The notes under the pieces were generated by a model. The model was given only the letters and a program-made list of their open reading frames with translations. It made no database searches and was not told where the DNA came from. A program made the position numbers and the translations under genes. Positions 120-22,029 of a stretch of 64,000 nucleotides of DNA are shown piece by piece (the first letter of the stretch is position 1; the number at the start of each line of letters is the position of its first letter). The DNA lies in NCBI RefSeq assembly GCF_051903065.1, contig NZ_CP178440.1; one strand, written 5' to 3'. The stretch is from Escherichia coli. Its GTDB lineage: Bacteria > Pseudomonadota > Gammaproteobacteria > Enterobacterales > Enterobacteriaceae.

Positions 120-1049
<930 letters not shown>

Positions 1050-4062: not shown

Positions 4063-4344
4063 ATGAATTACGATGAAATAACGAAAATCACTGCAGAACG
4101 TATTAGCGACTACATGACTGAAGCGGTTAATACAGACTCTAAATCTGTTGCGGAAATGTTTCATAACGCTGCATGGGGAGTGCTATCATTGTGGTTTGAA
4201 CTCGTCACAAAAATAGATCTGGATATACATAAAAAGAACAGGTATGCAAGTTATGATTTTAGAAGAAAAATCGAAATGCAGCATGAAGAGTTTCAGAAAA
4301 TGACAGAGCGTGAGCAAGTGCCTTTATTGAAATTGCCTGAATAA
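4063..4344 (+). CDS. Hypothetical protein (93 aa), convergent with parR
   Basis: ORF with ATG at 4063; no family recognised. Confidence 0.4.
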
Positions 4345-6979: not shown

Positions 6980-7201
6980 ATGAACTATGCCGGACACGAA
7001 AAACTTCGCGCCGACGTGGCGGAGGTGGCCAACACCATGTGTGACCTTCGGGCCAGGCTGAACGATATGGAGCATCGCTGTCGCTTTGATTCCGATGTGC
7101 TTGTTGAACGCCTGACACGCCAGACGCTGTATCGCGCCAATCGCCTGTTTATGGAGGCGTATACCGAAATTCTGGAACTGGATTCCTGCTTCAAAGATTG
7201 A
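6980..7201 (+). CDS. Hypothetical small protein (73 aa), start overlaps methyltransferase stop (taaATG)
   Basis: ORF; translational coupling geometry. Confidence 0.4.
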   Translation: MNYAGHEKLRADVAEVANTMCDLRARLNDMEHRCRFDSDVLVERLTRQTLYRANRLFMEAYTEILELDSCFKD

Positions 7202-7214
7202 GAAGGAGACGAGA

Positions 7215-7649
7215 ATGTACGGAACATGCGAAACGCTCTGCCGGGAGCTGGCAGCGCAGTATCCGGGAGACGCGCCGCTGATGCTGGTTGTCTGGTCCCC
7301 GGAAGAGATCCAGGCCCTCGCTGACGGAATGGATATTTCCCTGTCCGATCATGAAATCAGGACCGTCCTGGCGCGCCTGGAGGACATCCCGGAAGACCAG
7401 CGAATTGAGTCCGGTATTTCTTCCGCCGCGGCGATGGAGATTATCAGCAACGTGAGCGAAAACCGCCAGGTGACCGTTCCGGCTGAACTGCTGGCGTCCC
7501 TGATTCAGACCGCTGAACAGGCATTGTGGAAACGTGAATGGGCCGCCCGGGATCATGGCCTCGCCGTCCCGGAATGCGTCACCCGCCGTCAGGCGGTGGT
7601 TAATCAGGCCCGCACCCTGCTGAAAAACAACACACGCGAAAACGACTGA
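7215..7649 (+). CDS. Hypothetical leading-region protein (144 aa)
   Basis: ORF with RBS gaaggagacgagaATG; conserved-hypothetical of IncF leading regions as far as I recall. Confidence 0.5.
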   Translation: MYGTCETLCRELAAQYPGDAPLMLVVWSPEEIQALADGMDISLSDHEIRTVLARLEDIPEDQRIESGISSAAAMEIISNVSENRQVTVPAELLASLIQTAEQALWKREWAARDHGLAVPECVTRRQAVVNQARTLLKNNTREND

Positions 7650-7693
7650 TGTTATCGCCGCCTGCGGGCGGCGATTCAGGGAGACCATGAATC

Positions 7694-8464
7694 ATGAACG
7701 AAACGCTGAATGCACTGATTTGTCGCCACGCCCGTAACCTGCTGCTGGCGCAGGGCTGGCCGGAAGAGACGGATGTTGACCAGCGAAATCCGAACCATCC
7801 GGGCTGGATCAGCATTTACGTGCGGCTGGATGCGCCCCGGCTGGCGACATTACTCGTTAACCGCCACGATGGCGTGCTGCCGCCGCACCTGGCCTCCGCC
7901 ATTCAGAAACTGACCGGAACCGGGGCGGAGCTGGTACTGTCCGGCAGTCAGTGGCAGTCGCTGCCGGTACTTCCGGCAGACGGAACGCAGGTGTCTTTCC
8001 CGTATGCCGGTGAGTGGCTGGCAGAGGACGAAATCAGGGCAGTTCTTGATGCGGTACGCGATGCAGTACGCTGTGTCAGTTACCAGGTGGCAGAAGATAC
8101 GCGGCGTATCCGGGCGGCGCTGACCACAACCGGTCAGACGTTACTGACCCGCCAGACGCGCCGCTTTCGCCTGGTTGTGAAGGAAAGCGATCACCCCTGC
8201 TGGCTCGATGAGGACGACGAAAACCTGCCCGTGGTGCTCGATGCCATCCTGAACCGGGGCGCACGTTTTTCGTCGGTGGAAATGTATCTGGTCAGTGAGT
8301 GTATTGAGCATATCCTGTCCAGTGGGCTGGCCTGCGATGTGCTGCGTATACCGGATGAACCGCCCCGCCGCTGGTTTGACCGTGGTGTTCTGCGGGAGGT
8401 GGTCCGGGAAGCCCGGACCGAAATCCGCAGCATGGCGGATGCCCTGGCAAAAATCCGGAAATGA
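7694..8464 (+). CDS. Hypothetical leading-region protein (256 aa)
   Basis: ORF; no recognised motif. Confidence 0.5.
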
Positions 8465-8879
8465 TGACACTGGCGGGGTAAATCCCCGCCTTTTTCCTGC
8501 CGGTCCCCGGACAGAGCACAAAGGAAGTCGCCGCCGGCTCCGCTTTACCCGGCCATGCAGAGCATGGCCTTGTGGTTTTTCAGTTATGTGGCCTCAGCGT
8601 CGTGTGCGGGCTGTGCCGTGCCTCCATCTTAGCCGGGCTGGCGTTGATGCAAGGGTACGCTTCGCCGCTGCGGTCACCCGGTCCCTCCTTCCCGTCTGCC
8701 GTGATTTTCCGGTCGTTCGCCCGCTCAGGTTTCGCGGCCTCACCCTGCAACTCCCGCCAGCCGTGTGCGTCAGGCTGCGGCTTCCCTTGCGCCCCTGCAT
8801 CCCCGCCTTATCGCCCGGCTTTTATGGAGGCACGGCACCGCCCGGTGTCGCGGAATATGTGAACAACGGAGGAAATCCC

Positions 8880-9305
8880 ATGCAGTATGCGAAACCTGTC
8901 ACTCTGAACGTTGAAGAGTGCGACCGTCTCTCCTTTCTGCCTTACCTGTTTGGCAACGATTTTCTGTATGCCGAGGCGTATGTGTACGCGCTGGCGCAAA
9001 AAATGATGCCGGAATATCAGGGCGGCTTCTGGCACTTCATCCGCCTGCCGGACGGTGGCGGTTACATGATGCCGGATGGCGACCGTTTCCACATGGTGAA
9101 CGGTGCAAACTGGTTTGACCGTACCGTGAGTGCTGATGCCGCAGGCATCATCCTGACCTCCCTTGTGATTAACCGCCAGTTGTGGCTGTACCACGACAGC
9201 GGGGATGCAGGACTGACCCAGCTTTACCGGATGCGCGATGCGCAGTTGTGGCGTCACATCGAATTTCACCCCGAATGCAACGCGATTTACGCGGCTCTGG
9301 ACTGA
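8880..9305 (+). CDS. Antirestriction protein, KlcA/ArdB family
   Basis: 141-aa protein from ATG 8880 (RBS aacggagg); DRLSFLP and [15 protein letters not shown] segments resemble KlcA; the 336-aa ORF-track version is an N-terminal over-extension through GC-rich non-coding DNA. Confidence 0.7.
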
Positions 9306-14951: not shown

Positions 14952-15016
14952 GAGAGGTGCCGGACGGGGACACGTCCGGCAGACAATCATTATTACCGTT
15001 TTGGGAGGTACTAACT

Positions 15017-15591
15017 ATGTCAGTTACAGAGTCTAAGGCAAAAACGGAGCGTAAATCCAGCCGTAAACCTGCAAAAACGCAGGAAACAGTCCTGTCTGCC
15101 CTGCTGGCGGAGACGGCTGAAGTGAGCGTGCCGCTGGCCTCGCTGATTAAGTCACCGCTGAATGTGCGCACGGTGCCGTATTCTGCGGAGTCCGTCAGCG
15201 AACTGGCAGAGTCCATTAAAGGTGTCGGCCTGCTGCAGAATCTGGTTGTCCATGCCCTGCCTGGTGACCGTTACGGTGTCGCCGCAGGTGGTCGCAGGCT
15301 GGCGGCACTCAATATGCTGGCAGAGCGTGGCATCCTTCCGGCTGACTGGCCTGTCCGCGTGAAGGTCATCCCGCAGGAACTGGCGACGGCGGCATCGATG
15401 ACCGAGAACGGTCATCGTCGGGATATGCACCCTGCCGAACAGATTTCCGGATTCCGTGCAATGGCGCAGGAAGGCAAAACACCTGCACAAATCGGTGATT
15501 TGCTGGGCTATTCACCCCGCCATGTCCAGCGAATGCTGAAACTGGCAGACCTTGCGCCTGTCATCCTCGATGCGCTGGCAGAAGACCGCAT
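15017..15591 (+). pseudogene. ParB-like leading-region gene, N-terminal fragment interrupted by IS26 copy 2
   Basis: ORF runs without a stop into the IS26 left inverted repeat at 15592; remainder resumes in frame at 20742. Confidence 0.6.
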
Positions 15592-16411
15592 GGCACTGTT
15601 GCAAATAGTCGGTGGTGATAAACTTATCATCCCCTTTTGCTGATGGAGCTGCACATGAACCCATTCAAAGGCCGGCATTTTCAGCGTGACATCATTCTGT
15701 GGGCCGTACGCTGGTACTGCAAATACGGCATCAGTTACCGTGAGCTGCAGGAGATGCTGGCTGAACGCGGAGTGAATGTCGATCACTCCACGATTTACCG
15801 CTGGGTTCAGCGTTATGCGCCTGAAATGGAAAAACGGCTGCGCTGGTACTGGCGTAACCCTTCCGATCTTTGCCCGTGGCACATGGATGAAACCTACGTG
15901 AAGGTCAATGGCCGCTGGGCGTATCTGTACCGGGCCGTCGACAGCCGGGGCCGCACTGTCGATTTTTATCTCTCCTCCCGTCGTAACAGCAAAGCTGCAT
16001 ACCGGTTTCTGGGTAAAATCCTCAACAACGTGAAGAAGTGGCAGATCCCGCGATTCATCAACACGGATAAAGCGCCCGCCTATGGTCGCGCGCTTGCTCT
16101 GCTCAAACGCGAAGGCCGGTGCCCGTCTGACGTTGAACACCGACAGATTAAGTACCGGAACAACGTGATTGAATGCGATCATGGCAAACTGAAACGGATA
16201 ATCAACGCCACGCTGGGATTTAAATCCATGAAGACGGCTTACGCCACCATCAAAGGTATTGAGGTGATGCGTGCACTACGCAAAGGCCAGGCCTCAGCAT
16301 TTTATTATGGTGATCCCCTGGGCGAAATGCGCCTGGTAAGCAGAGTTTTTGAAATGTAAGGCCTTTGAATAAGACAAAAGGCTGCCTCATCGCTAACTTT
16401 GCAACAGTGCC
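15592..16411 (+). mobile_element. IS26 copy 2 (820 bp)
   Basis: Exact 14-bp terminal inverted repeats; flanking 8-mers gaccgcat and ttgtgaac. Confidence 0.95.
15655..16359 (+). CDS. tnpA: IS26 transposase
   Basis: Identical translation to the other copies. Confidence 0.95.
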   Translation: MNPFKGRHFQRDIILWAVRWYCKYGISYRELQEMLAERGVNVDHSTIYRWVQRYAPEMEKRLRWYWRNPSDLCPWHMDETYVKVNGRWAYLYRAVDSRGRTVDFYLSSRRNSKAAYRFLGKILNNVKKWQIPRFINTDKAPAYGRALALLKREGRCPSDVEHRQIKYRNNVIECDHGKLKRIINATLGFKSMKTAYATIKGIEVMRALRKGQASAFYYGDPLGEMRLVSRVFEM

Positions 16412-16907
16412 TTGTGAACCTTATTGATGATCGTACCGATGATATTTTGTATGGAAGGCCATGGTACAAAAAATGGACGATGGGGAGAATGATCTCATTT
16501 AACACATCTTCGCCTTACGCCAATGCTAATGGAAGATTAAGAAAGTGGGCAAAAAATAATAATATCAGTTTAAAGTAAGCATCAGAATGAAATTATATGG
16601 ACGAAAAATTTCTCTATTAACTGCACCATGGCTGGTAAAATCTCTTACCCTTGATGAAAATACAGGTTCCGTTACTGTTACGGTCGGAATCGCTGAAAAT
16701 ACCTATAACCATCGTAAATGGTTCCACTTTGATACCTGCCTGTTCATTACCCAGTGCGCCGTAAAGCCCCGTCCTTCAGGGCGTGGAGGATGTCAAATTA
16801 GTAGAAGCCGATGCTGGGAGCAATGTTCCACTACGGGAAGCTGAATATGGCGTTCTGAGCCTTCCTACAATTATCGGGGAAGCCCCATCTGCGTACTCCG
16901 GATTTTT

Positions 16908-17035
16908 GTTTATATGATCATGGGATTATATGATTATATCATTTTGTAACTATTTGATTATGTAATTTTATGATTGCATAATTTTATGAATATGAGATTA
17001 TTTGAATACTTGGCAGAGGTACTATTTGAACAAAG
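16908..17035. promoter_or_regulatory. Array of about 7 degenerate AT-rich direct repeats (TT(A/T)TGA(T/A)T) upstream of parA; candidate centromere/operator
   Basis: ttatatgatca, ttatatgattat, tttgattatgt, ttttatgattg, ttttatgaata, ttatttgaata, tatttgaaca read at roughly 11-12 bp spacing. Confidence 0.5.
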
Positions 17036-17046
17036 GGGAGAGGTGA

Positions 17047-17670
17047 ATGCCTAACGTGATAGCATTTTTAAATGGTAAGGGGGGGGTGTCTAAGACAACC
17101 TCGGCAGTTAATATTGCTACTGCTCTTGCTCGTAAGGGTTACAAAGTTGTTGTTGTGGATACCGATCCCCAGGGAAGTGTTAGTAACTGGTATGATGACA
17201 GTAAGTGTGTTTTTGATGTAGCGGAAGCTACGGCAGAAAAAGAAATTTACCGTTTGCGGAAGGCGCTTCCTTTGCACGATTTTATCATTATTGATGGTGC
17301 TGCTGCGATTTCGGCGATATCGGCGGCTGCTGTTATGGTTTCTGATCTTGTTATTATTCCAGTTACTCCTTCGCCGCTTGATTTTGCTGCGTGTGGCGCG
17401 ATATTGGCAGTGATAGAAGCTCGTCAGGATTTACGCCCGGTGATTGCTCGCTTTTTGATTACTAAAAAAGTACAGCAAACGCATATGTTATCTTTGCTGA
17501 AAGAATCTATTGCAGAAACAAGCATACCAGCATTAAAAACAGGAACGTCGTACAGGCAGTCATATATAAGATCTATGCTGGATGGTGGTACTATATTTGA
17601 TACAAAAGATAGTGCTGCTAAAGGTGAAATATCAGTTATTACAGAAGAAATACTTGGACTATTAAAATGA
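17047..17670 (+). CDS. ParA-family partition ATPase (small, type Ib-like)
   Basis: Deviant Walker [11 protein letters not shown] at N-terminus, 207 aa. Confidence 0.85.
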
Positions 17671-17873
17671 GTAAAATGAAACTTGGGAATCATAAGGCAA
17701 CAAACACTGCTCTGGATGCACTGAAGAAACCTGCGGGAGCAACCAGAAAGTTACAAATGAATATTCCAGAAGAGTTACATCTTGCATTTAAATTAGCTTG
17801 TGTGGAAGATGGCATTGATATGACACAGGTAAATATAGAACTCATTCAAAACTGGTTAAAGAGTCGTAACTGA
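17667..17873 (+). CDS. Small partition partner protein (ParG-like, probable ribbon-helix-helix centromere binder)
   Basis: 68-aa ORF overlapping parA stop; basic N-terminal tail then short structured domain. Confidence 0.5.
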
Positions 17874-18182
17874 TAGTGTTTCAGCCAGTCGTAATCTGCG
17901 ACGCAAACAAAAAGCGCTGTCCCGCAAGCTCAATGCGGCACTCAACATCCGGCAAAAAGGAATACAGGAACTACAGGCGACGGGACTCGTCGTCACTGCC
18001 CATGGAGACCAGCGTAAATCCGTCGTACAGAAGAGGATAAAATGGGAGAGCAGTTATCGATTCCCTATCCGGGCAGCCCGTTTACGGGCCGTAAGTAACG
18101 AAGTTGGATGCAAATGTCAGATCGTGTGCGCCTGTTAGGGCGCGGCTGGTAAGAGAGCCTTATAGGCGCATTTGAAAAACCT

Positions 18183-18206
18183 CCGGCTATGCCGGAGGAT
18201 ATTTAT
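18183..18206. terminator. Bidirectional rho-independent terminator hairpin (cctccggc ... gccggagg) flanked by A/T runs
   Basis: Perfect stem with T-run on the minus strand about 80 nt downstream of the adhesin stop. Confidence 0.5.
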
Positions 18207-18284
18207 TTATCGAGTTCGGTGACCGCCTGGACGGTCACTTCTGAGACAAGGCATTTACACAGAATCTTAAACAGGCTCGCTAAT

Positions 18285-19775
18285 TTACCACCCAATGGCA
18301 AAACCAGCTCCTAAGTTTGTATCACCACCATTGTTCCATGATGTGTTGACTCGTATGTTAGCATTCTGGCTCACTTTATATTGAACTCCGGCTGCGATTG
18401 CTTGAGCATCACGATAATGCCCCACGCCCATACCAAATGAAAAGCGCTCATTATTAACATAAGGAATTGATGAAATAGCGGTAACTCCGGCAATACCCGC
18501 ATTAGCACGCTTTTCGACTCTATCTATTTTTTTATTCATTTGTGAGAATCTTTGCTCATTTTTCTGCTGTAAATCATTTAATGTTTTATTGAAGTTTTTA
18601 CCTAATGTATCAACGCTAGATGCAGTATATTTGTTTGCCATTTCTAGAGTGTTTAAATCACCTTGTTCACGGAGTCTTTTCTCTTCATTGATTGCACTTG
18701 TTCTGGCTTTTTTTTCTTCATTTATTCTTGCAACTACTGATTTGCTGGGGTCTTTTTCTATATTTTTAATTTCATCTTCACTCATGCCTATAGCTTTAGT
18801 GACAACATCTAATTGGGACATATTCACAGCATCTGTAGGATTTACGCCCCCGGCAAGATTCGTGATTCTTCTGTTTATCATGGGCTCTGTCGTTGTTGCT
18901 TCCCTTCCTAAAGATACAACACCATTCTTACTATCTGTGTTCTCTACAGCGGTATATTTAGATACAGTATCATCATATTGATTATGCGTTTTCGATCTTG
19001 CCCCAAGAGCAATACTGCCTTTTGAATTAGACTCAGATAAATATCCAATGGAAACAGAATCAGTTTCCTGAGAGGCTGAATATGATCCTAATGCAATACT
19101 ATTTTTACCAATGGAATGAGACTCTAATCCTATGGCAGAACTGCCAGAGCCAATTGATAATGATTGACTACCCAATGCTGTACCAAATTCACCAACCACC
19201 GTCGAAAAGGAACCTACTGCCGTTCCTTCAATATTGTGGGAACTTGATTTATATCCCATTACAGATGACGCATATTGATTCCCATATTTCTCCTTAGCAT
19301 GAGGATCAACAGATGAGTCAACAGAAATATGTCCATCAGCGGATACTGTTATTTTTTTACCACTCACATCTAAGGATGAATTATTTTCAGGCAATTTAGT
19401 TACTGAAGCTTTGTTACCGATTAAAGTTGAATAGTTTCCTTCTGAATCAATTTTCGATCTGGATCCAACTATAGTCGAAAAAGTCCCTGCTTCTGTTGCA
19501 GAATCGTATCCTATTACTACTGATGCTCCTGCTCCTCCTTTTTCTGGTATATTCAAAGACTTAGAATTTGGACCTATTACTACTGAGAAATTTTGTTCTG
19601 ATCTTGTAGCATCACCAATTCCCTTACCAATAGCGATACTGCCAATACCTGAAGATTCTGTATTATCCGCACCAATAGCTATAGATGAGTAGCCTTTAGG
19701 ATTAGCAGCAAAAGAACAAAGGCTAACACCAGATAATGTTAATAGTATAGATGATAAAATTAATTTATTATTCAT
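18285..19775 (-). CDS. Trimeric autotransporter adhesin (YadA-like head repeats, coiled-coil stalk, C-terminal beta-barrel anchor)
   Basis: Signal peptide MNNKLILSSILLTLSGVSLCSFA, repetitive SIAIG/SxGxxS head motifs, heptad-rich stalk, C-terminal anchor ending GAGFAIGW. Confidence 0.8.
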   Translation of the reverse strand: MNNKLILSSILLTLSGVSLCSFAANPKGYSSIAIGADNTESSGIGSIAIGKGIGDATRSEQNFSVVIGPNSKSLNIPEKGGAGASVVIGYDSATEAGTFSTIVGSRSKIDSEGNYSTLIGNKASVTKLPENNSSLDVSGKKITVSADGHISVDSSVDPHAKEKYGNQYASSVMGYKSSSHNIEGTAVGSFSTVVGEFGTALGSQSLSIGSGSSAIGLESHSIGKNSIALGSYSASQETDSVSIGYLSESNSKGSIALGARSKTHNQYDDTVSKYTAVENTDSKNGVVSLGREATTTEPMINRRITNLAGGVNPTDAVNMSQLDVVTKAIGMSEDEIKNIEKDPSKSVVARINEEKKARTSAINEEKRLREQGDLNTLEMANKYTASSVDTLGKNFNKTLNDLQQKNEQRFSQMNKKIDRVEKRANAGIAGVTAISSIPYVNNERFSFGMGVGHYRDAQAIAAGVQYKVSQNANIRVNTSWNNGGDTNLGAGFAIGW

Positions 19776-19921
19776 AGCAACATATCCCACCAAAGTAGAT
19801 AGATTATCGTTATTCCTCGATAAATAAATTGCAATGTAAGATACATTAATCTTAACAATGTGTTAACATAAGAGGCTGTTAACACATTTAGTTTATAACA
19901 TAAAACATCATAAATATTAAG

Positions 19922-20741
19922 GGCACTGTTGCAAATAGTCGGTGGTGATAAACTTATCATCCCCTTTTGCTGATGGAGCTGCACATGAACCCATTCAAAG
20001 GCCGGCATTTTCAGCGTGACATCATTCTGTGGGCCGTACGCTGGTACTGCAAATACGGCATCAGTTACCGTGAGCTGCAGGAGATGCTGGCTGAACGCGG
20101 AGTGAATGTCGATCACTCCACGATTTACCGCTGGGTTCAGCGTTATGCGCCTGAAATGGAAAAACGGCTGCGCTGGTACTGGCGTAACCCTTCCGATCTT
20201 TGCCCGTGGCACATGGATGAAACCTACGTGAAGGTCAATGGCCGCTGGGCGTATCTGTACCGGGCCGTCGACAGCCGGGGCCGCACTGTCGATTTTTATC
20301 TCTCCTCCCGTCGTAACAGCAAAGCTGCATACCGGTTTCTGGGTAAAATCCTCAACAACGTGAAGAAGTGGCAGATCCCGCGATTCATCAACACGGATAA
20401 AGCGCCCGCCTATGGTCGCGCGCTTGCTCTGCTCAAACGCGAAGGCCGGTGCCCGTCTGACGTTGAACACCGACAGATTAAGTACCGGAACAACGTGATT
20501 GAATGCGATCATGGCAAACTGAAACGGATAATCAACGCCACGCTGGGATTTAAATCCATGAAGACGGCTTACGCCACCATCAAAGGTATTGAGGTGATGC
20601 GTGCACTACGCAAAGGCCAGGCCTCAGCATTTTATTATGGTGATCCCCTGGGCGAAATGCGCCTGGTAAGCAGAGTTTTTGAAATGTAAGGCCTTTGAAT
20701 AAGACAAAAGGCTGCCTCATCGCTAACTTTGCAACAGTGCC
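19922..20741 (+). mobile_element. IS26 copy 3 (820 bp), same orientation as copy 2
   Basis: Exact terminal inverted repeats; flanking 8-mers atattaag and accggaag. Confidence 0.95.
19985..20689 (+). CDS. tnpA: IS26 transposase
   Basis: Identical translation to the other copies. Confidence 0.95.
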   Translation: MNPFKGRHFQRDIILWAVRWYCKYGISYRELQEMLAERGVNVDHSTIYRWVQRYAPEMEKRLRWYWRNPSDLCPWHMDETYVKVNGRWAYLYRAVDSRGRTVDFYLSSRRNSKAAYRFLGKILNNVKKWQIPRFINTDKAPAYGRALALLKREGRCPSDVEHRQIKYRNNVIECDHGKLKRIINATLGFKSMKTAYATIKGIEVMRALRKGQASAFYYGDPLGEMRLVSRVFEM

Positions 20742-22029
20742 ACCGGAAGTACAGACCATTCGTCGTCTGGTGACCGAAAGTGAAGTGGCGGTGGCGGGGA
20801 ACAGTAAATTCCGCTTCGTGGGGGCTGATGCCTTCTCGCCAGACGAACTGCGCACCGATTTGTTCAGCGATGACGGGGACGGTTATGTCGACCGCGTGGC
20901 GCTCGATGCTGCCCTGCTGGAAAAACTCCAGGCTGTCGCAGAGTTCCTTCGGGAAGCCGAGGGCTGGGGATGGTGCGCCGGACGCATGGAGCCTGTCGGT
21001 GAATGCCGTGAAGATGCCCGGGCATACCGCAACCTGCCGGAGCCGGAAGCGGTGCTGACGGAGGCGGAAGAAGAACACCTGAACGAACTGATGGCACGTT
21101 ACGACGCGCTGGAAAACCAGTGTGAGGAATCTGACCTGCTGGCAGCAGAAATGAAGCTGATTGACTGCATGGCGAAGGTCAGGGCGTGGACGCCGGAGAT
21201 GCGTGCCGGAAGTGGCGTGGTGGTGTCCTGGCGTTACGGTAATGTGTGTATCCAGCGTGGTGTGCAGTTGCGCAGTGAGGATGATGTGGCTGACGACGCT
21301 GACCGCACGGAACAGGGGCTGGAGAGCGCGTCAGTGGAGGAAATCAGTCTGCCGTTGCTGACTAAACTGACCTCAGAGCGCACGCTGGCAGTCCAGGCAG
21401 CACTGATGCAGCAACCGGACAAATCCCTGGCACTGCTGGCATGGACGCTCTGCCTGAATGTGTTTGACAGCAAAGCGCACTGTAGTCCCGCCAGAATTCG
21501 CCTGGCATGTGAGCATTATGCGCTGACCAGCGATGCACCGTCGGGGAAGGAAGGTGCCGCATTCATGGCGCTGATGGCAGAACACTCTCGTTTTGCTGCC
21601 CTGCTGCCGGAAGGATGGGAACGGGATATGACGACGTTCCTGTCACTCAGCCAGGAGGTGCTGTTATCCCTGCTCAGCTTCTGTACCGCGTGCAGTCTTA
21701 ACGGTGTCCAGACCCGAGAGTGTGGTCACACGTCACGCAGTCCGCTTGACTCGCTGGAAACCGCCATCGGCTTTCACATGCGCGACTGGTGGCAGCCGAC
21801 AAAAGCAAACTTCTTCGGACACCTGAAAAAGCCGCAGATTATCGCAGCTCTGAATGAGGCAGGACTGTCCGGTGCCGCACGGGACGCGGAGAAGATGAAG
21901 AAAGGCGATGCGGCTGAACATGCAGAGTTCCATATGAAAGACAACCGCTGGGTGCCTGGCTGGATGTGTGCACCACGTCCACAGACGGATACCACTGAAC
22001 GCACCGATAACCTGGCTGATGCCGCCTGA
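20742..22029 (+). pseudogene. ParB-like leading-region gene, C-terminal fragment (continues the frame interrupted at 15591)
   Basis: Open frame begins exactly at the IS26 boundary; joining 15591 to 20742 gives codon ata and an uninterrupted frame. Confidence 0.6.

What the first reader, a model, noticed from the sequence alone, without database searches (positions are those of the whole stretch)
18285..19775. Plasmid-borne trimeric autotransporter adhesin mobilised by IS26
A YadA-like trimeric autotransporter with signal peptide, repetitive head, coiled-coil stalk and beta-barrel anchor is carried inside the IS26 module, AT-rich relative to the backbone. Adhesins on conjugative resistance plasmids can affect biofilm, colonisation or mating aggregation; this one sits within a translocatable unit and so could spread with it.
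Basis: partly seen in the sequence, partly recalled or inferred. Interest (0 to 1): 0.45.

Follow-up and report, generated by a model that had tools for sequence, protein, structure and literature searches.

The report
Proteus adhesin gene captured by IS26
An intact but uncharacterised surface-adhesin gene of the well-known YadA type, copied almost base-for-base from Proteus mirabilis mobile DNA, sits between two IS26 copies on an F-type CTX-M resistance plasmid; it is a tidy example of known biology, not a new kind of system.

Summary
Window 18285-19775 (- strand) is an intact 496-aa ORF. It has a Sec-type signal peptide, 15 YadA-head-type repeats, the neck motif, a ~110-residue helical stalk and a four-strand YadA anchor ending in Trp. 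All three Pfam domains score above their cut-offs.

The protein is identical to RefSeq WP_060555118.1 ("YadA-like family protein"). That sequence is on record in 253 collection blocks, 25 of them with contigs of about 4.1-4.2 Mb, most likely Proteus mirabilis chromosomes.

The gene lies in a 3510-bp, 39% GC segment (16412-19921) between two identical, directly oriented IS26 copies. This structure interrupts the yubM leading-region gene of an F-type conjugative blaCTX-M plasmid. The segment is 99.97% identical to contiguous Proteus DNA.

IS26 cut 146 bp upstream of the ATG. That removed a hypervariable (TTGTTA)n tract found in every native locus and placed the IS26 outward -35 (TTGCAA) 16 bp from a TATGAT.

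I found no evidence that this IS26 unit has moved elsewhere. Related E. coli copies are bounded by IS91-family and ISKpn26 elements, and some are truncated. Adhesion, expression and any effect on conjugation remain untested.

Verdict: a new member of a known kind, of modest interest.

The parts
18285..19775 (-). Intact trimeric-autotransporter-adhesin (type Vc) gene, 496 aa, identical to WP_060555118.1; mature protomer 473 aa, 49.6 kDa
   Evidence: ORF; Pfam anchor, head and neck all above cut-off; PDB hits; identity to WP_060555118.1/P0121; mass
19707..19775 (-). Signal-peptide codons (aa 1-23: MNNK + hydrophobic LILSSILLTLSGVSLC + SFA|A cleavage motif); no lipobox
   Evidence: Sequence inspection and hydropathy; no SignalP-type tool was available
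18876..19706 (-). Passenger head (aa 24-300): 15 SxxIG-type YadA head repeats in two blocks (aa 31-120 and 170-258), separated by an insert at aa 121-169
   Evidence: Motif scan; beta-strand ladder in the AF2 model; matches to YadA head 1p9h and SadA 2yo0
18456..18875 (-). Neck (NRRITNLAGGVNPTDAVNMSQL, aa 301-322) and helical stalk (aa ~325-440)
   Evidence: Pfam YadA_stalk 303-330; AF2 helices 319-435; a/d hydrophobic periodicity 0.62-0.88 against 0.34 background in the last ~70 residues; YadA stalk 3h7x E 0.003
18288..18455 (-). YadA-type membrane anchor (aa 441-496), four beta-strands, C-terminal Trp
   Evidence: Pfam PF03895 E 2e-12; 2lme E 1.8e-9; Foldseek to AtaA, Hia and YadA transmembrane domains, E 6e-5 to 2e-3; strands 445-494
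19776..19921 (-). The 146 bp of native upstream DNA that survive. Holds a 12-bp-arm palindrome AATGTGTTAACA/TGTTAACACATT (19857-19888), a promoter-like TTAACA-17-TATCTT (19866-19838) and a GGTGGGA Shine-Dalgarno-like run. Conserved to about -129 in a 92%-identical allele, with one symmetric change that keeps the palindrome
19907..19934 (-). Candidate IS26 hybrid promoter: -35 TTGCAA inside the IS26 terminal repeat, 16-bp spacer, -10 TATGAT in the adjacent Proteus DNA
   Evidence: Consensus scan (the number of such sites in the region is no higher than in shuffles); the outward -35 of IS26 ends is documented, PMC6807381 and PMC7986276
19922..20741 (+). IS26 copy, 820 bp, intact Tnp26; its left end abuts the adhesin upstream region
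15592..16411 (+). IS26 copy, 820 bp, identical to the other and in direct orientation
16412..19921 (.). The 3510-bp cargo segment (GC 0.394), 99.94-99.97% identical to one contiguous stretch of native DNA (L003, L004, L006, L007, L012)
18180..18198 (-). Intrinsic-terminator-like hairpin (CCTCCGGC-ATA-GCCGGAGG + TTTTT), 87 bp after the stop codon
17047..17873 (+). Co-captured ParA(ParF-type)/ParG partition gene pair, convergent with the adhesin gene
   Evidence: Pfam
16903..17022 (+). Array of about 10-12 repeats with 8-bp period directly upstream of parA; likely the partition site/operator
   Evidence: the function is inferred
16412..16578 (+). 3' remnant of a DUF1706/ClbS-like gene cut by IS26
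   Evidence: The native gene is 172 aa (L003 11198-11716); the homology boundary is at 16412
17923..18098 (+). IS200/IS605 TnpB and TnpA remnants between parG and the adhesin terminator
   Evidence: RefSeq annotation of the identical stretch in pM172-1.1, (coordinates transferred by the offset)
14957..15591 (+). 5' part of the F leading-region yubM (ParB-like) gene, interrupted by the IS26 structure
20742..22029 (+). 3' part of yubM; 96 bp of the gene are missing between the two parts and there is no 8-bp target duplication

Best explanation
The gene encodes a complete, short trimeric autotransporter adhesin (type Vc secretion).

Expected mechanism, inferred from the family:
- Sec export using the 23-residue signal peptide.
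- Three protomers each contribute four C-terminal beta-strands to a 12-strand outer-membrane barrel, inserted by BAM.
- The three passengers are threaded out and fold into a lollipop: coiled-coil stalk, neck, then a left-handed beta-roll head built from about 15 SxxIG repeats.
- The exposed head is the sticky part. The most likely activities are binding to host or abiotic surfaces and cell-cell autoaggregation. The ligand is unknown.

History, shown by sequence:
- The gene, a ParA/ParG partition cassette and fragments of neighbouring genes form a 3.5-kb piece of plasmid-like mobile DNA that is most likely Proteus mirabilis DNA.
- In the about 4.1-4.2 Mb chromosomes that piece sits in an ISVsa5-bounded block. 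In L022 the block lies next to umuC and a MobI-family gene.
- In the window the piece is bounded by two direct IS26 copies inside yubM of an F-type CTX-M plasmid. This is an IS26 pseudo-compound transposon, which could in principle leave as a translocatable unit.

Consequence for expression, inferred:
- IS26 removed the distal 308 bp of the native 454-bp control region, including a hypervariable (TTGTTA)n tract and a promoter-like site within it.
- It left the conserved proximal 146 bp.
- It added an outward -35 that forms a plausible hybrid promoter.
- The plasmid copy is therefore probably uncoupled from the native repeat-dependent control.
For: Family membership and intactness:
- establish the domains and an uninterrupted ORF.
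- The protein is identical to WP_060555118.1/P0121.
- The clade shows purifying selection: dN/dS 0.22 overall, 0.06-0.13 in the anchor.

Origin:
- The 3510 bp are collinear and 99.94-99.97% identical with native loci.
- The same gene neighbourhood occurs in contigs of 4.09 and 4.24 Mb.
- Sources name the protein as Proteus mirabilis and Enterobacterales.
- The flanking IS in the chromosomal loci is ISVsa5.

IS26 structure:
- define the copies, their orientation and their flanks.
- The backbone lost 96 bp.

Upstream region:
- The native intergenic region is 454 bp with (TTGTTA)n, n = 5-14, among otherwise >=99.9% identical loci.
- A promoter-like TTGTTA-16-TATGAT, preceded by TG, lies in that tract.
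- The window has a hybrid TTGCAA-16-TATGAT.
- The outward -35 of IS26 ends is a documented source of hybrid promoters (PMC6807381, PMC7986276).
- The proximal ~130 bp are conserved in a 92% allele.
Against: - No expression or surface-display data exist.
- Promoter-like sites in the region are no more frequent than in shuffled sequence: 7 found against 7.1 expected. Both the hybrid and the proximal promoter are therefore only consensus matches.
- The AF2 monomer model is poor (mean pLDDT 53), so fold evidence is weak outside the anchor.
- The DNA is 37% GC and would be a typical H-NS target in E. coli (inference), so it may be silent.
- In other E. coli plasmids the gene or its 92% allele is truncated or fragmented, suggesting weak selection for it in that host.
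- The heptad signal is weak in the charged first half of the stalk.
Confidence: 0.75

Rival explanations
1. Silent hitch-hiker. The gene is intact only because the transfer is recent. In E. coli it is not expressed, because of H-NS silencing of AT-rich DNA and/or loss of the distal native promoter. It contributes nothing to the plasmid. The IS26 capture was neutral, or was selected for another reason such as the ParA/ParG partition cassette.
For: - Zero amino-acid changes from the allele in the large chromosomal contigs, and one nucleotide change in 3510 bp, so there has been no time for decay.
- GC is 0.37.
- A promoter-like site and the repeat tract were deleted.
- Several E. coli contigs break inside the first 20 bp of the gene, or carry a fragmented 92% allele.
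Against: - The proximal 130 bp conserved between alleles are retained.
- A plausible IS26 hybrid promoter faces the gene.
- The gene persists intact in at least three different E. coli plasmid contexts (and the window).
Confidence: 0.3
2. Plasmid-beneficial aggregation factor. The adhesin makes donor cells clump or stick to recipients, raising conjugation frequency in liquid or plasmid persistence in biofilms.
For: - It sits on a complete F-type transfer plasmid.
- Autoaggregation is a common property of this adhesin family (general knowledge; reviewed in PMC7568254 and PMC6605025, found but not read in detail).
Against: - No evidence specific to this protein.
- The insertion site (yubM, leading region) and the co-captured genes give no link to transfer.
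- The arrangement is unique among PLSDB plasmids and complete E. coli genomes, so there is no sign of spread.
Confidence: 0.1
3. Serum-resistance or immunoglobulin-binding factor, in the manner of YadA or the prophage-borne Eib proteins, rather than a tissue adhesin.
For: - The closest chromosomal relative, P0004, sits between the lysis cassette and the terminase genes of P. mirabilis prophages. From memory, this is the kind of cargo position where E. coli eib genes lie.
- The size and architecture resemble YadA and Eib.
Against: - EibD structures did not appear among PDB sequence matches at E <= 0.01.
- The score against the NCBIfam YadA model is 82 bits, against a cut-off of 750.
Confidence: 0.1
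4. Pseudogene or truncated remnant.
For: A 92% allele on three other IncF plasmids is split into two small ORFs and lacks the stalk and anchor.
Against: - The window copy is a single 496-aa frame with start codon, signal peptide and complete anchor.
- It is identical to the widespread allele.
Confidence: 0.02

Closest known systems
YadA of Yersinia (pYV plasmid), prototype trimeric autotransporter adhesin
   Same: - Plasmid-borne and of similar size.
- Same order of parts: signal peptide, SxxIG-repeat head, neck, coiled-coil stalk, four-strand anchor.
- Direct sequence matches to the YadA head, stalk and anchor structures.
   Different: - Only domain-level similarity: 82 bits against the 750-bit cut-off of the NCBIfam YadA model.
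- The head is in two blocks with a 49-residue insert.
- Ligand unknown.
Saa, the autoagglutinating adhesin on pO113 of LEE-negative STEC
   Same: A trimeric-autotransporter-type adhesin carried on a large E. coli conjugative plasmid (PMC2681110).
   Different: The window gene derives from Proteus-type DNA and is IS26-bounded.
AipA and TaaP, the two characterised trimeric autotransporters of Proteus mirabilis
   Same: Same genus of origin and same protein class. They mediate adhesion/invasion and autoagglutination (PMC11599158, PMC10469602).
   Different: - AipA and TaaP are core genome; this gene is accessory cargo on mobile DNA.
- Apart from its own clade (67-84% identity), the nearest Proteus proteins share <=54% identity over only the C-terminal third, or 40% over 61%.
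NadA of Neisseria meningitidis, controlled by an upstream TAAA repeat tract
   Same: A trimeric autotransporter whose native locus carries a length-variable short repeat upstream of the promoter (PMC2791445). The native Proteus loci have (TTGTTA)5-14 upstream of this gene.
   Different: - Hexamer rather than tetramer repeat.
- No evidence yet that tract length changes expression.
- The tract is absent from the window copy.
IS26 pseudo-compound transposons / translocatable units (for example Tn4352 with aphA1a)
   Same: Two direct, identical, intact IS26 copies flank a captured segment. Lack of a flanking target duplication is common for such structures (PMC7986276).
   Different: - The cargo is an adhesin plus a partition cassette, not a resistance gene.
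- Movement of this unit has not been observed.

Membership tests
Trimeric autotransporter adhesins (type Vc secretion) | C-terminal YadA-like anchor: about 70-100 residues, four beta-strands, terminal aromatic residue | tested here: met
   PF03895 E 2e-12 at residues 441-496; 2lme E 1.8e-9; Foldseek to AtaA, Hia and YadA anchors; four strands at 445-494; ends ...GFAIGW
Trimeric autotransporter adhesins (type Vc secretion) | N-terminal Sec signal peptide | tested here: met
   K4, hydrophobic core 5-20, SFA|A at 21-24; judged by inspection only, no dedicated predictor
Trimeric autotransporter adhesins (type Vc secretion) | Passenger built of head repeats, neck and coiled-coil stalk leading directly into the anchor | tested here: met
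   PF05658 and PF05662 above cut-off; 15 SxxIG repeats; neck motif RRITNLAGG..DAVN..QL aligned to SadA and YadA; helix 347-435 running into the anchor
Trimeric autotransporter adhesins (type Vc secretion) | Obligate homotrimer displayed on the cell surface | not testable with these tools
   Only a monomer could be modelled (pLDDT 53); needs SDS-resistant trimer and surface-labelling experiments
YadA proper (NCBIfam NF033478) | Full-length score at or above the curated cut-off (750 bits) | tested here: not met
   82.5 bits, C-terminal 137 residues only; likewise far below the cut-offs for EmaA, BimA and Ata
IS26 pseudo-compound transposon / potential translocatable unit | Two IS26 copies in direct orientation with intact Tnp26 flanking the segment | tested here: met
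   15592-16411 and 19922-20741, both on the + strand, identical, Tnp26 234 aa
IS26 pseudo-compound transposon / potential translocatable unit | 8-bp target-site duplication flanking the whole structure (expected only for a simple copy-in event) | tested here: not met
   GACCGCAT against ACCGGAAG; 96 bp of yubM are missing. This is compatible with conservative or deletion-forming IS26 events, so it does not exclude the family
IS26 pseudo-compound transposon / potential translocatable unit | Same unit, with the same junctions, seen at another location | tested here: not met
   No other record in PLSDB or in complete E. coli genomes has the segment with these junctions. Scans of metagenome and species-representative genome collections were negative, but those collections lack even the native sequence, so they are uninformative
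Repeat-controlled (phase-variable) adhesin locus | Length-variable simple repeat in or next to the promoter | tested here: inconclusive
   Native loci vary from 5 to 14 TTGTTA units, with a promoter-like site at the tract end. The tract is deleted in the window, and no expression data link tract length to output

The most novel reading that the evidence does not exclude
IS26 did more than carry the gene. By cutting 146 bp upstream of the ATG, it removed a contingency-type (TTGTTA)n control tract and supplied its own outward -35. A Proteus adhesin that is variably expressed in its native setting would thus become constitutively expressed on an E. coli ESBL conjugative plasmid. This would change how plasmid-bearing cells aggregate, form biofilm or colonise. 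It would be an example of IS26 rewiring a virulence-type gene rather than a resistance gene.
Probability: 0.1. Interest if true: 0.5.

Novelty: new member of a known kind. Interest (0 to 1): 0.25.

Why it matters
It shows IS26, best known for moving resistance genes, carrying a surface adhesin and a partition cassette from Proteus-type mobile DNA onto an E. coli F-type CTX-M plasmid. If the adhesin is expressed, resistance and a colonisation or aggregation trait would travel together.

The same small adhesin clade turns up on prophages, plasmids, an ISVsa5-bounded block that in one chromosome lies next to ICE-type genes (umuC, MobI), and IS91- and IS26-bounded units. That makes it a convenient case for studying how adhesin cargo moves between mobile elements and how insertion sequences rewire its control region.

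None of this is unexpected for the families involved.

Tried and rejected
- **Structure.** The AlphaFold2 monomer built from a 34-sequence alignment gave mean pLDDT 53. Only the anchor gave meaningful Foldseek matches, and the head fold could not be confirmed structurally. A trimer could not be modelled.
- **IS26 junction scans.** Exact scans of metagenome contigs and genome contigs found nothing. The control scan with the native, uninterrupted sequence also found nothing. These collections therefore do not sample the locus, and the negative result carries no weight.
- **Named adhesins.** The NCBIfam models for YadA, EmaA, BimA and Ata all score far below their cut-offs, so the protein was not filed under any named adhesin.
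- **AipA/TaaP paper.** The primary paper (PMC2976323) is not held, so no direct comparison was possible.
- **Partner gene.** I looked for a conserved downstream partner of the SadB or TpgA type. The genes downstream of the P0003 and P0004 relatives are unrelated to each other and have no Pfam hit. The window copy has only a terminator and IS200/IS605 remnants downstream.
- **RNA families.** Rfam found nothing across 15500-20800 at E <= 0.1.
- **Phages.** Sequenced phages share only anchor-level similarity, 25-42% coverage at <40% identity.
- **Pseudogene reading.** Rejected for the window copy; it holds only for the 92% allele on pMS20659-like plasmids.
Full report
**1. What is at the coordinates**

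The ORF list shows one long frame on the minus strand, 18285-19793. Counted from the ATG at 19775 it gives 496 aa. Pfam finds the three diagnostic domains of trimeric autotransporter adhesins, all above their gathering cut-offs:
- YadA_anchor at residues 441-496 (E 2e-12).
- YadA_head at residues 209-233.
- YadA_stalk/neck at residues 303-330.

A sequence search of the PDB returns several matches:
- the YadA membrane anchor (2lme, E 1.8e-9);
- SadA head/neck fragments (2yo0);
- the YadA collagen-binding head (1p9h);
- the AtaA and Hia anchors;
- a YadA stalk fragment (3h7x).

**2. Anatomy of the protein**

- **Signal peptide.** Residues 1-23 have the form of a Sec signal peptide: MNNK, then a hydrophobic core, then SFA|A. 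There is no lipobox.
- **Head.** Fifteen SxxIG-type head repeats fall in two blocks, at residues 31-120 and 170-258, separated by a 49-residue insert.
- **Neck.** The motif NRRITNLAGGVNPTDAVNMSQL aligns with the necks of SadA and YadA.
- **Stalk.** An AlphaFold2 monomer model is of low confidence (mean pLDDT 53), as expected for an obligate trimer. Its secondary structure is nevertheless the expected one: a beta-strand ladder through the head, one long helix at 347-435, then four strands at 445-494. A simple heptad test finds 0.62-0.88 hydrophobic a/d positions over the last ~70 stalk residues, against a 0.34 background. The signal is weaker in the highly charged first half.
- **Anchor.** Foldseek matches the anchor to the AtaA, Hia and YadA transmembrane domains (E 6e-5 to 2e-3). 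The chain ends in Trp.
- **Size.** The mature protomer is 473 aa, 49.6 kDa.

The protein scores far below the curated cut-offs of the NCBIfam models for YadA, EmaA, BimA and Ata. It is therefore a member of the class but not of any named family.

**3. It is not a pseudogene**

The translation is identical to WP_060555118.1 as encoded on pM172-1.1. It is also identical to database protein P0121, labelled 'MULTISPECIES: YadA-like family protein [Enterobacterales]'. P0121 is on record in 253 collection blocks, 25 of which have contigs above 1 Mb.

Three relatives form a small clade with it: P0002 (84% identity), P0003 (80%) and P0004 (67%, BLASTP figures). Nei-Gojobori estimates against P0003 and P0004 give dN/dS 0.22 overall and 0.06-0.13 in the anchor. 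The clade is a real protein family under constraint.

**4. The IS26 module and the plasmid**

The 14-bp IS26 terminal repeat occurs six times, where none is expected by chance. This defines three 820-bp copies at 1365-2184, 15592-16411 and 19922-20741. The three are identical and each encodes an intact 234-aa Tnp26. The two copies around the adhesin gene are directly oriented and enclose 16412-19921 (3510 bp). GC of that segment is 0.394, against 0.515 for the window and 0.55-0.60 in the adjacent backbone.

The window also encodes a CTX-M beta-lactamase (120-995) and F-type TraC, TraG, TraD, TraI, PsiA and FinO. It is a conjugative ESBL plasmid.

The IS26 structure interrupts the leading-region ParB-like gene yubM. 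The 8-bp flanks differ (GACCGCAT and ACCGGAAG). The joined flanks span 896 bp in intact relatives such as LC763833.1, against 800 bp here. So 96 bp were lost and there is no target duplication. Published accounts of IS26 behaviour allow this (PMC7986276), but it means the history was more than one simple insertion.

**5. Where the cargo came from**

The 3510 bp are collinear with, and 99.94-99.97% identical to, one uninterrupted stretch in several contigs that carry the same or a one-residue-different protein. In those native loci the gene order is: higB/higA-like, DUF5397, a VapD/Cas2-like gene, the adhesin gene, then convergent parG-parA and a DUF1706/ClbS-like gene.

One metagenomic contig has an IncFII-type repA and a resolvase next to this block (L005). 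In two contigs of 4.09 and 4.24 Mb the block lies between two direct copies of ISVsa5. In L022, the 4.09 Mb contig, that block lies next to umuC and a gene with a MobI Pfam hit, which is reminiscent of an SXT/R391-type element; in L023 the far flank differs. That last resemblance comes from memory and was not tested.

Sources name the proteins of this cluster Proteus mirabilis or E. coli, and the GC content fits Proteus. The organism of the large contigs is inferred from those names and from the contig sizes.

IS26 cut the native DNA inside the DUF1706 gene on one side, leaving the remnant at 16412-16578. On the other side it cut 146 bp upstream of the adhesin ATG.

**6. What the cut did to the control region**

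The native intergenic region is 454 bp long. It contains a (TTGTTA)n tract. The longest perfect run is 5, 7, 9, 10, 11, 12 or 14 units in loci that are otherwise at least 99.9% identical, including complete long-read genomes.

A promoter-like site sits at the 3' end of the tract: TTGTTA, 16 bp, TATGAT preceded by TG. Because the -35 is itself a repeat unit, tract length would change what lies upstream of the promoter rather than its spacer. That recalls the TAAA tract of nadA (PMC2791445). This is a resemblance only; no expression data exist.

All of this is deleted in the window. What remains is the proximal 146 bp:
- a 12-bp-arm palindrome (19857-19888);
- a promoter-like TTAACA-17-TATCTT (19866-19838);
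- a Shine-Dalgarno-like GGTGGGA.

These ~130 bp are conserved in a 92%-identical allele on pMS20659, and homology ends just before the IS26 cut. One symmetric pair of changes preserves the palindrome. This argues that the core promoter/operator is retained.

In addition, the IS26 terminal repeat places its outward TTGCAA 16 bp from a TATGAT in the Proteus DNA (19934-19907). The outward -35 of IS26-family ends is a documented source of hybrid promoters (PMC6807381, PMC7986276).

One caution applies. The scan found 7 promoter-like sites in the region against 7.1 expected from shuffles, so none of these sites is evidence of function on its own.

**7. Has the IS26 unit spread?**

Only one PLSDB plasmid and one complete E. 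coli genome record cover at least 80% of the segment, and they are the same plasmid: pM172-1.1, from a pangolin isolate in China. There the left side carries IS26 plus an IS91-family element that replaced 239 bp. The right side keeps the native upstream region with its repeat tract.

A second complete plasmid, from a human blood isolate in Taiwan, has just the gene. It is bounded by an IS91-family element at window-equivalent 18172, and an ISKpn26 copy lies upstream of the gene beyond the native control region, which is retained with its repeat tract.

Short-read E. coli contigs place the same IS91-family end at window-equivalent 16458 (L013). L015, like pM172-1.1, loses homology at 16651, where an IS91-family element follows. 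Both contigs break within the first 20 bp of the gene.

The window shares a single upstream SNP (19847 T) with those two E. coli contigs and with no Proteus-type locus. That suggests an E. coli-circulating sub-lineage.

So the gene has clearly been moved repeatedly by insertion sequences. The particular IS26-IS26 arrangement is so far unique, and IS91-family elements are at least as involved. Exact-junction scans of the metagenome and species-representative collections were negative. Those collections also lack the native sequence, so they are uninformative.

**8. Relatives on other mobile elements**

- P0004 lies in P. mirabilis prophages between the lysis cassette and the terminase genes.
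- P0003 lies among IS, anti-restriction and KlcB-type plasmid genes, with a small HTH gene just upstream.
- A 92% allele on three IncF plasmids is fragmented and lacks the stalk and anchor.
- No conserved partner gene accompanies the clade.
- No Rfam family matches the region.

**9. Mechanism, comparison with known systems, and verdict**

*Shown:*
- an intact gene of the type Vc class;
- its near-identity to native DNA that is most likely Proteus;
- the IS26-bounded structure on an F-type CTX-M plasmid;
- the loss of the distal control region.

*Inferred from the family:*
- Sec export;
- BAM-assisted assembly of a 12-strand barrel from three protomers;
- a head-neck-stalk lollipop;
- adhesive or autoaggregative function.

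*Unknown:*
- whether the gene is expressed;
- its ligand;
- any effect on conjugation.

The closest known systems are:
- YadA (pYV);
- Saa (pO113);
- the Proteus AipA and TaaP proteins, which are core genes, whereas this one is accessory;
- the prophage-borne Eib proteins;
- for the carrier, IS26 pseudo-compound transposons.

This is a new, uncharacterised member of well-known kinds. I rate interest at 0.25. The most interesting open possibility is that IS26 rewired expression of the adhesin.

Noticed in passing
L003 7744-7792 and the equivalent positions in L001, L004, L005, L007, L010, L012, L014 (native loci; deleted from the window beyond 19921): A hypervariable (TTGTTA)n tract lies about 210-290 bp upstream of the adhesin ATG. 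The longest perfect run is 5 to 14 units in loci that are otherwise at least 99.9% identical, and a promoter-like site sits at the tract end. It looks like a contingency-type repeat.
   Followed up: partly
L013 3299-3502, L010 ~4150-4204, L001 ~7060-8923, L015 3124-3884: An IS91-family element adjoins the adhesin segment at three different positions in E. coli contigs (window-equivalent 16458, 16651 and 18172). L013 shows the element's end duplicated in tandem. This suggests repeated one-ended, rolling-circle-type mobilisation alongside IS26.
   Followed up: partly
window 19847: A single SNP in the retained upstream region (T on the + strand). It is shared only with two E. coli short-read contigs (L013, L015). 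All Proteus-type loci, pM172-1.1 and the Taiwan plasmid have C.
   Followed up: partly
L016-L018 5001-6650: The closest chromosomal relative (549 aa, about 70% identity) is prophage cargo between the holin/endolysin/spanin genes and the terminase genes in P. mirabilis. A second adhesin gene of the same class (568 aa) lies a few kb away in L016 and L017.
   Followed up: partly
window 16903-17022: An array of about 10-12 degenerate repeats with a strict 8-bp period lies directly upstream of parA. It is probably the centromere/operator of the co-captured ParA/ParG cassette. That cassette gives the F plasmid a second, foreign partition system.
   Followed up: partly
window 14957-15591 and 20742-22029: The F leading-region yubM (ParB-like) gene is split by the IS26 structure. 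96 bp are lost and there is no target-site duplication.
   Followed up: yes
window 19857-19888, compared with L002 about 7130-7165: The upstream palindrome AATGTGTTAACA/TGTTAACACATT is kept in the 92% allele through a symmetric pair of changes (GTTAACA to GTTAATA, and TGTTAAC to TATTAAC). This hints at a dimeric regulator site or a hairpin. In the pMS20659 and P0003 contexts a small HTH gene lies just upstream.
   Followed up: partly
window 17923-18098: Remnants of an IS200/IS605 element (TnpB and TnpA fragments) lie between parG and the adhesin terminator. They are already present in the native Proteus-type loci.
   Followed up: no
L022 721-1929 and 16065-17273; L023 likewise: In contigs of about 4.1-4.2 Mb, a block of about 16.5 kb that holds the adhesin module is bounded by two direct ISVsa5 copies. 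In L022 it lies next to umuD/umuC-like genes and a MobI-family gene, which is reminiscent of an SXT/R391-type element.
   Followed up: partly
window 120-995 and 1365-2184: A blaCTX-M gene lies with a third, inverted IS26 copy 370 bp away. The three identical IS26 copies give scope for further inversion, deletion or unit formation across the 1.4-20.7 kb region.
   Followed up: no
window 16747-16797: A 51-bp stretch recurs at 92% identity elsewhere in the native island (L003 3657-3707, L012 1633-1683). It is an unidentified short repeat.
   Followed up: no
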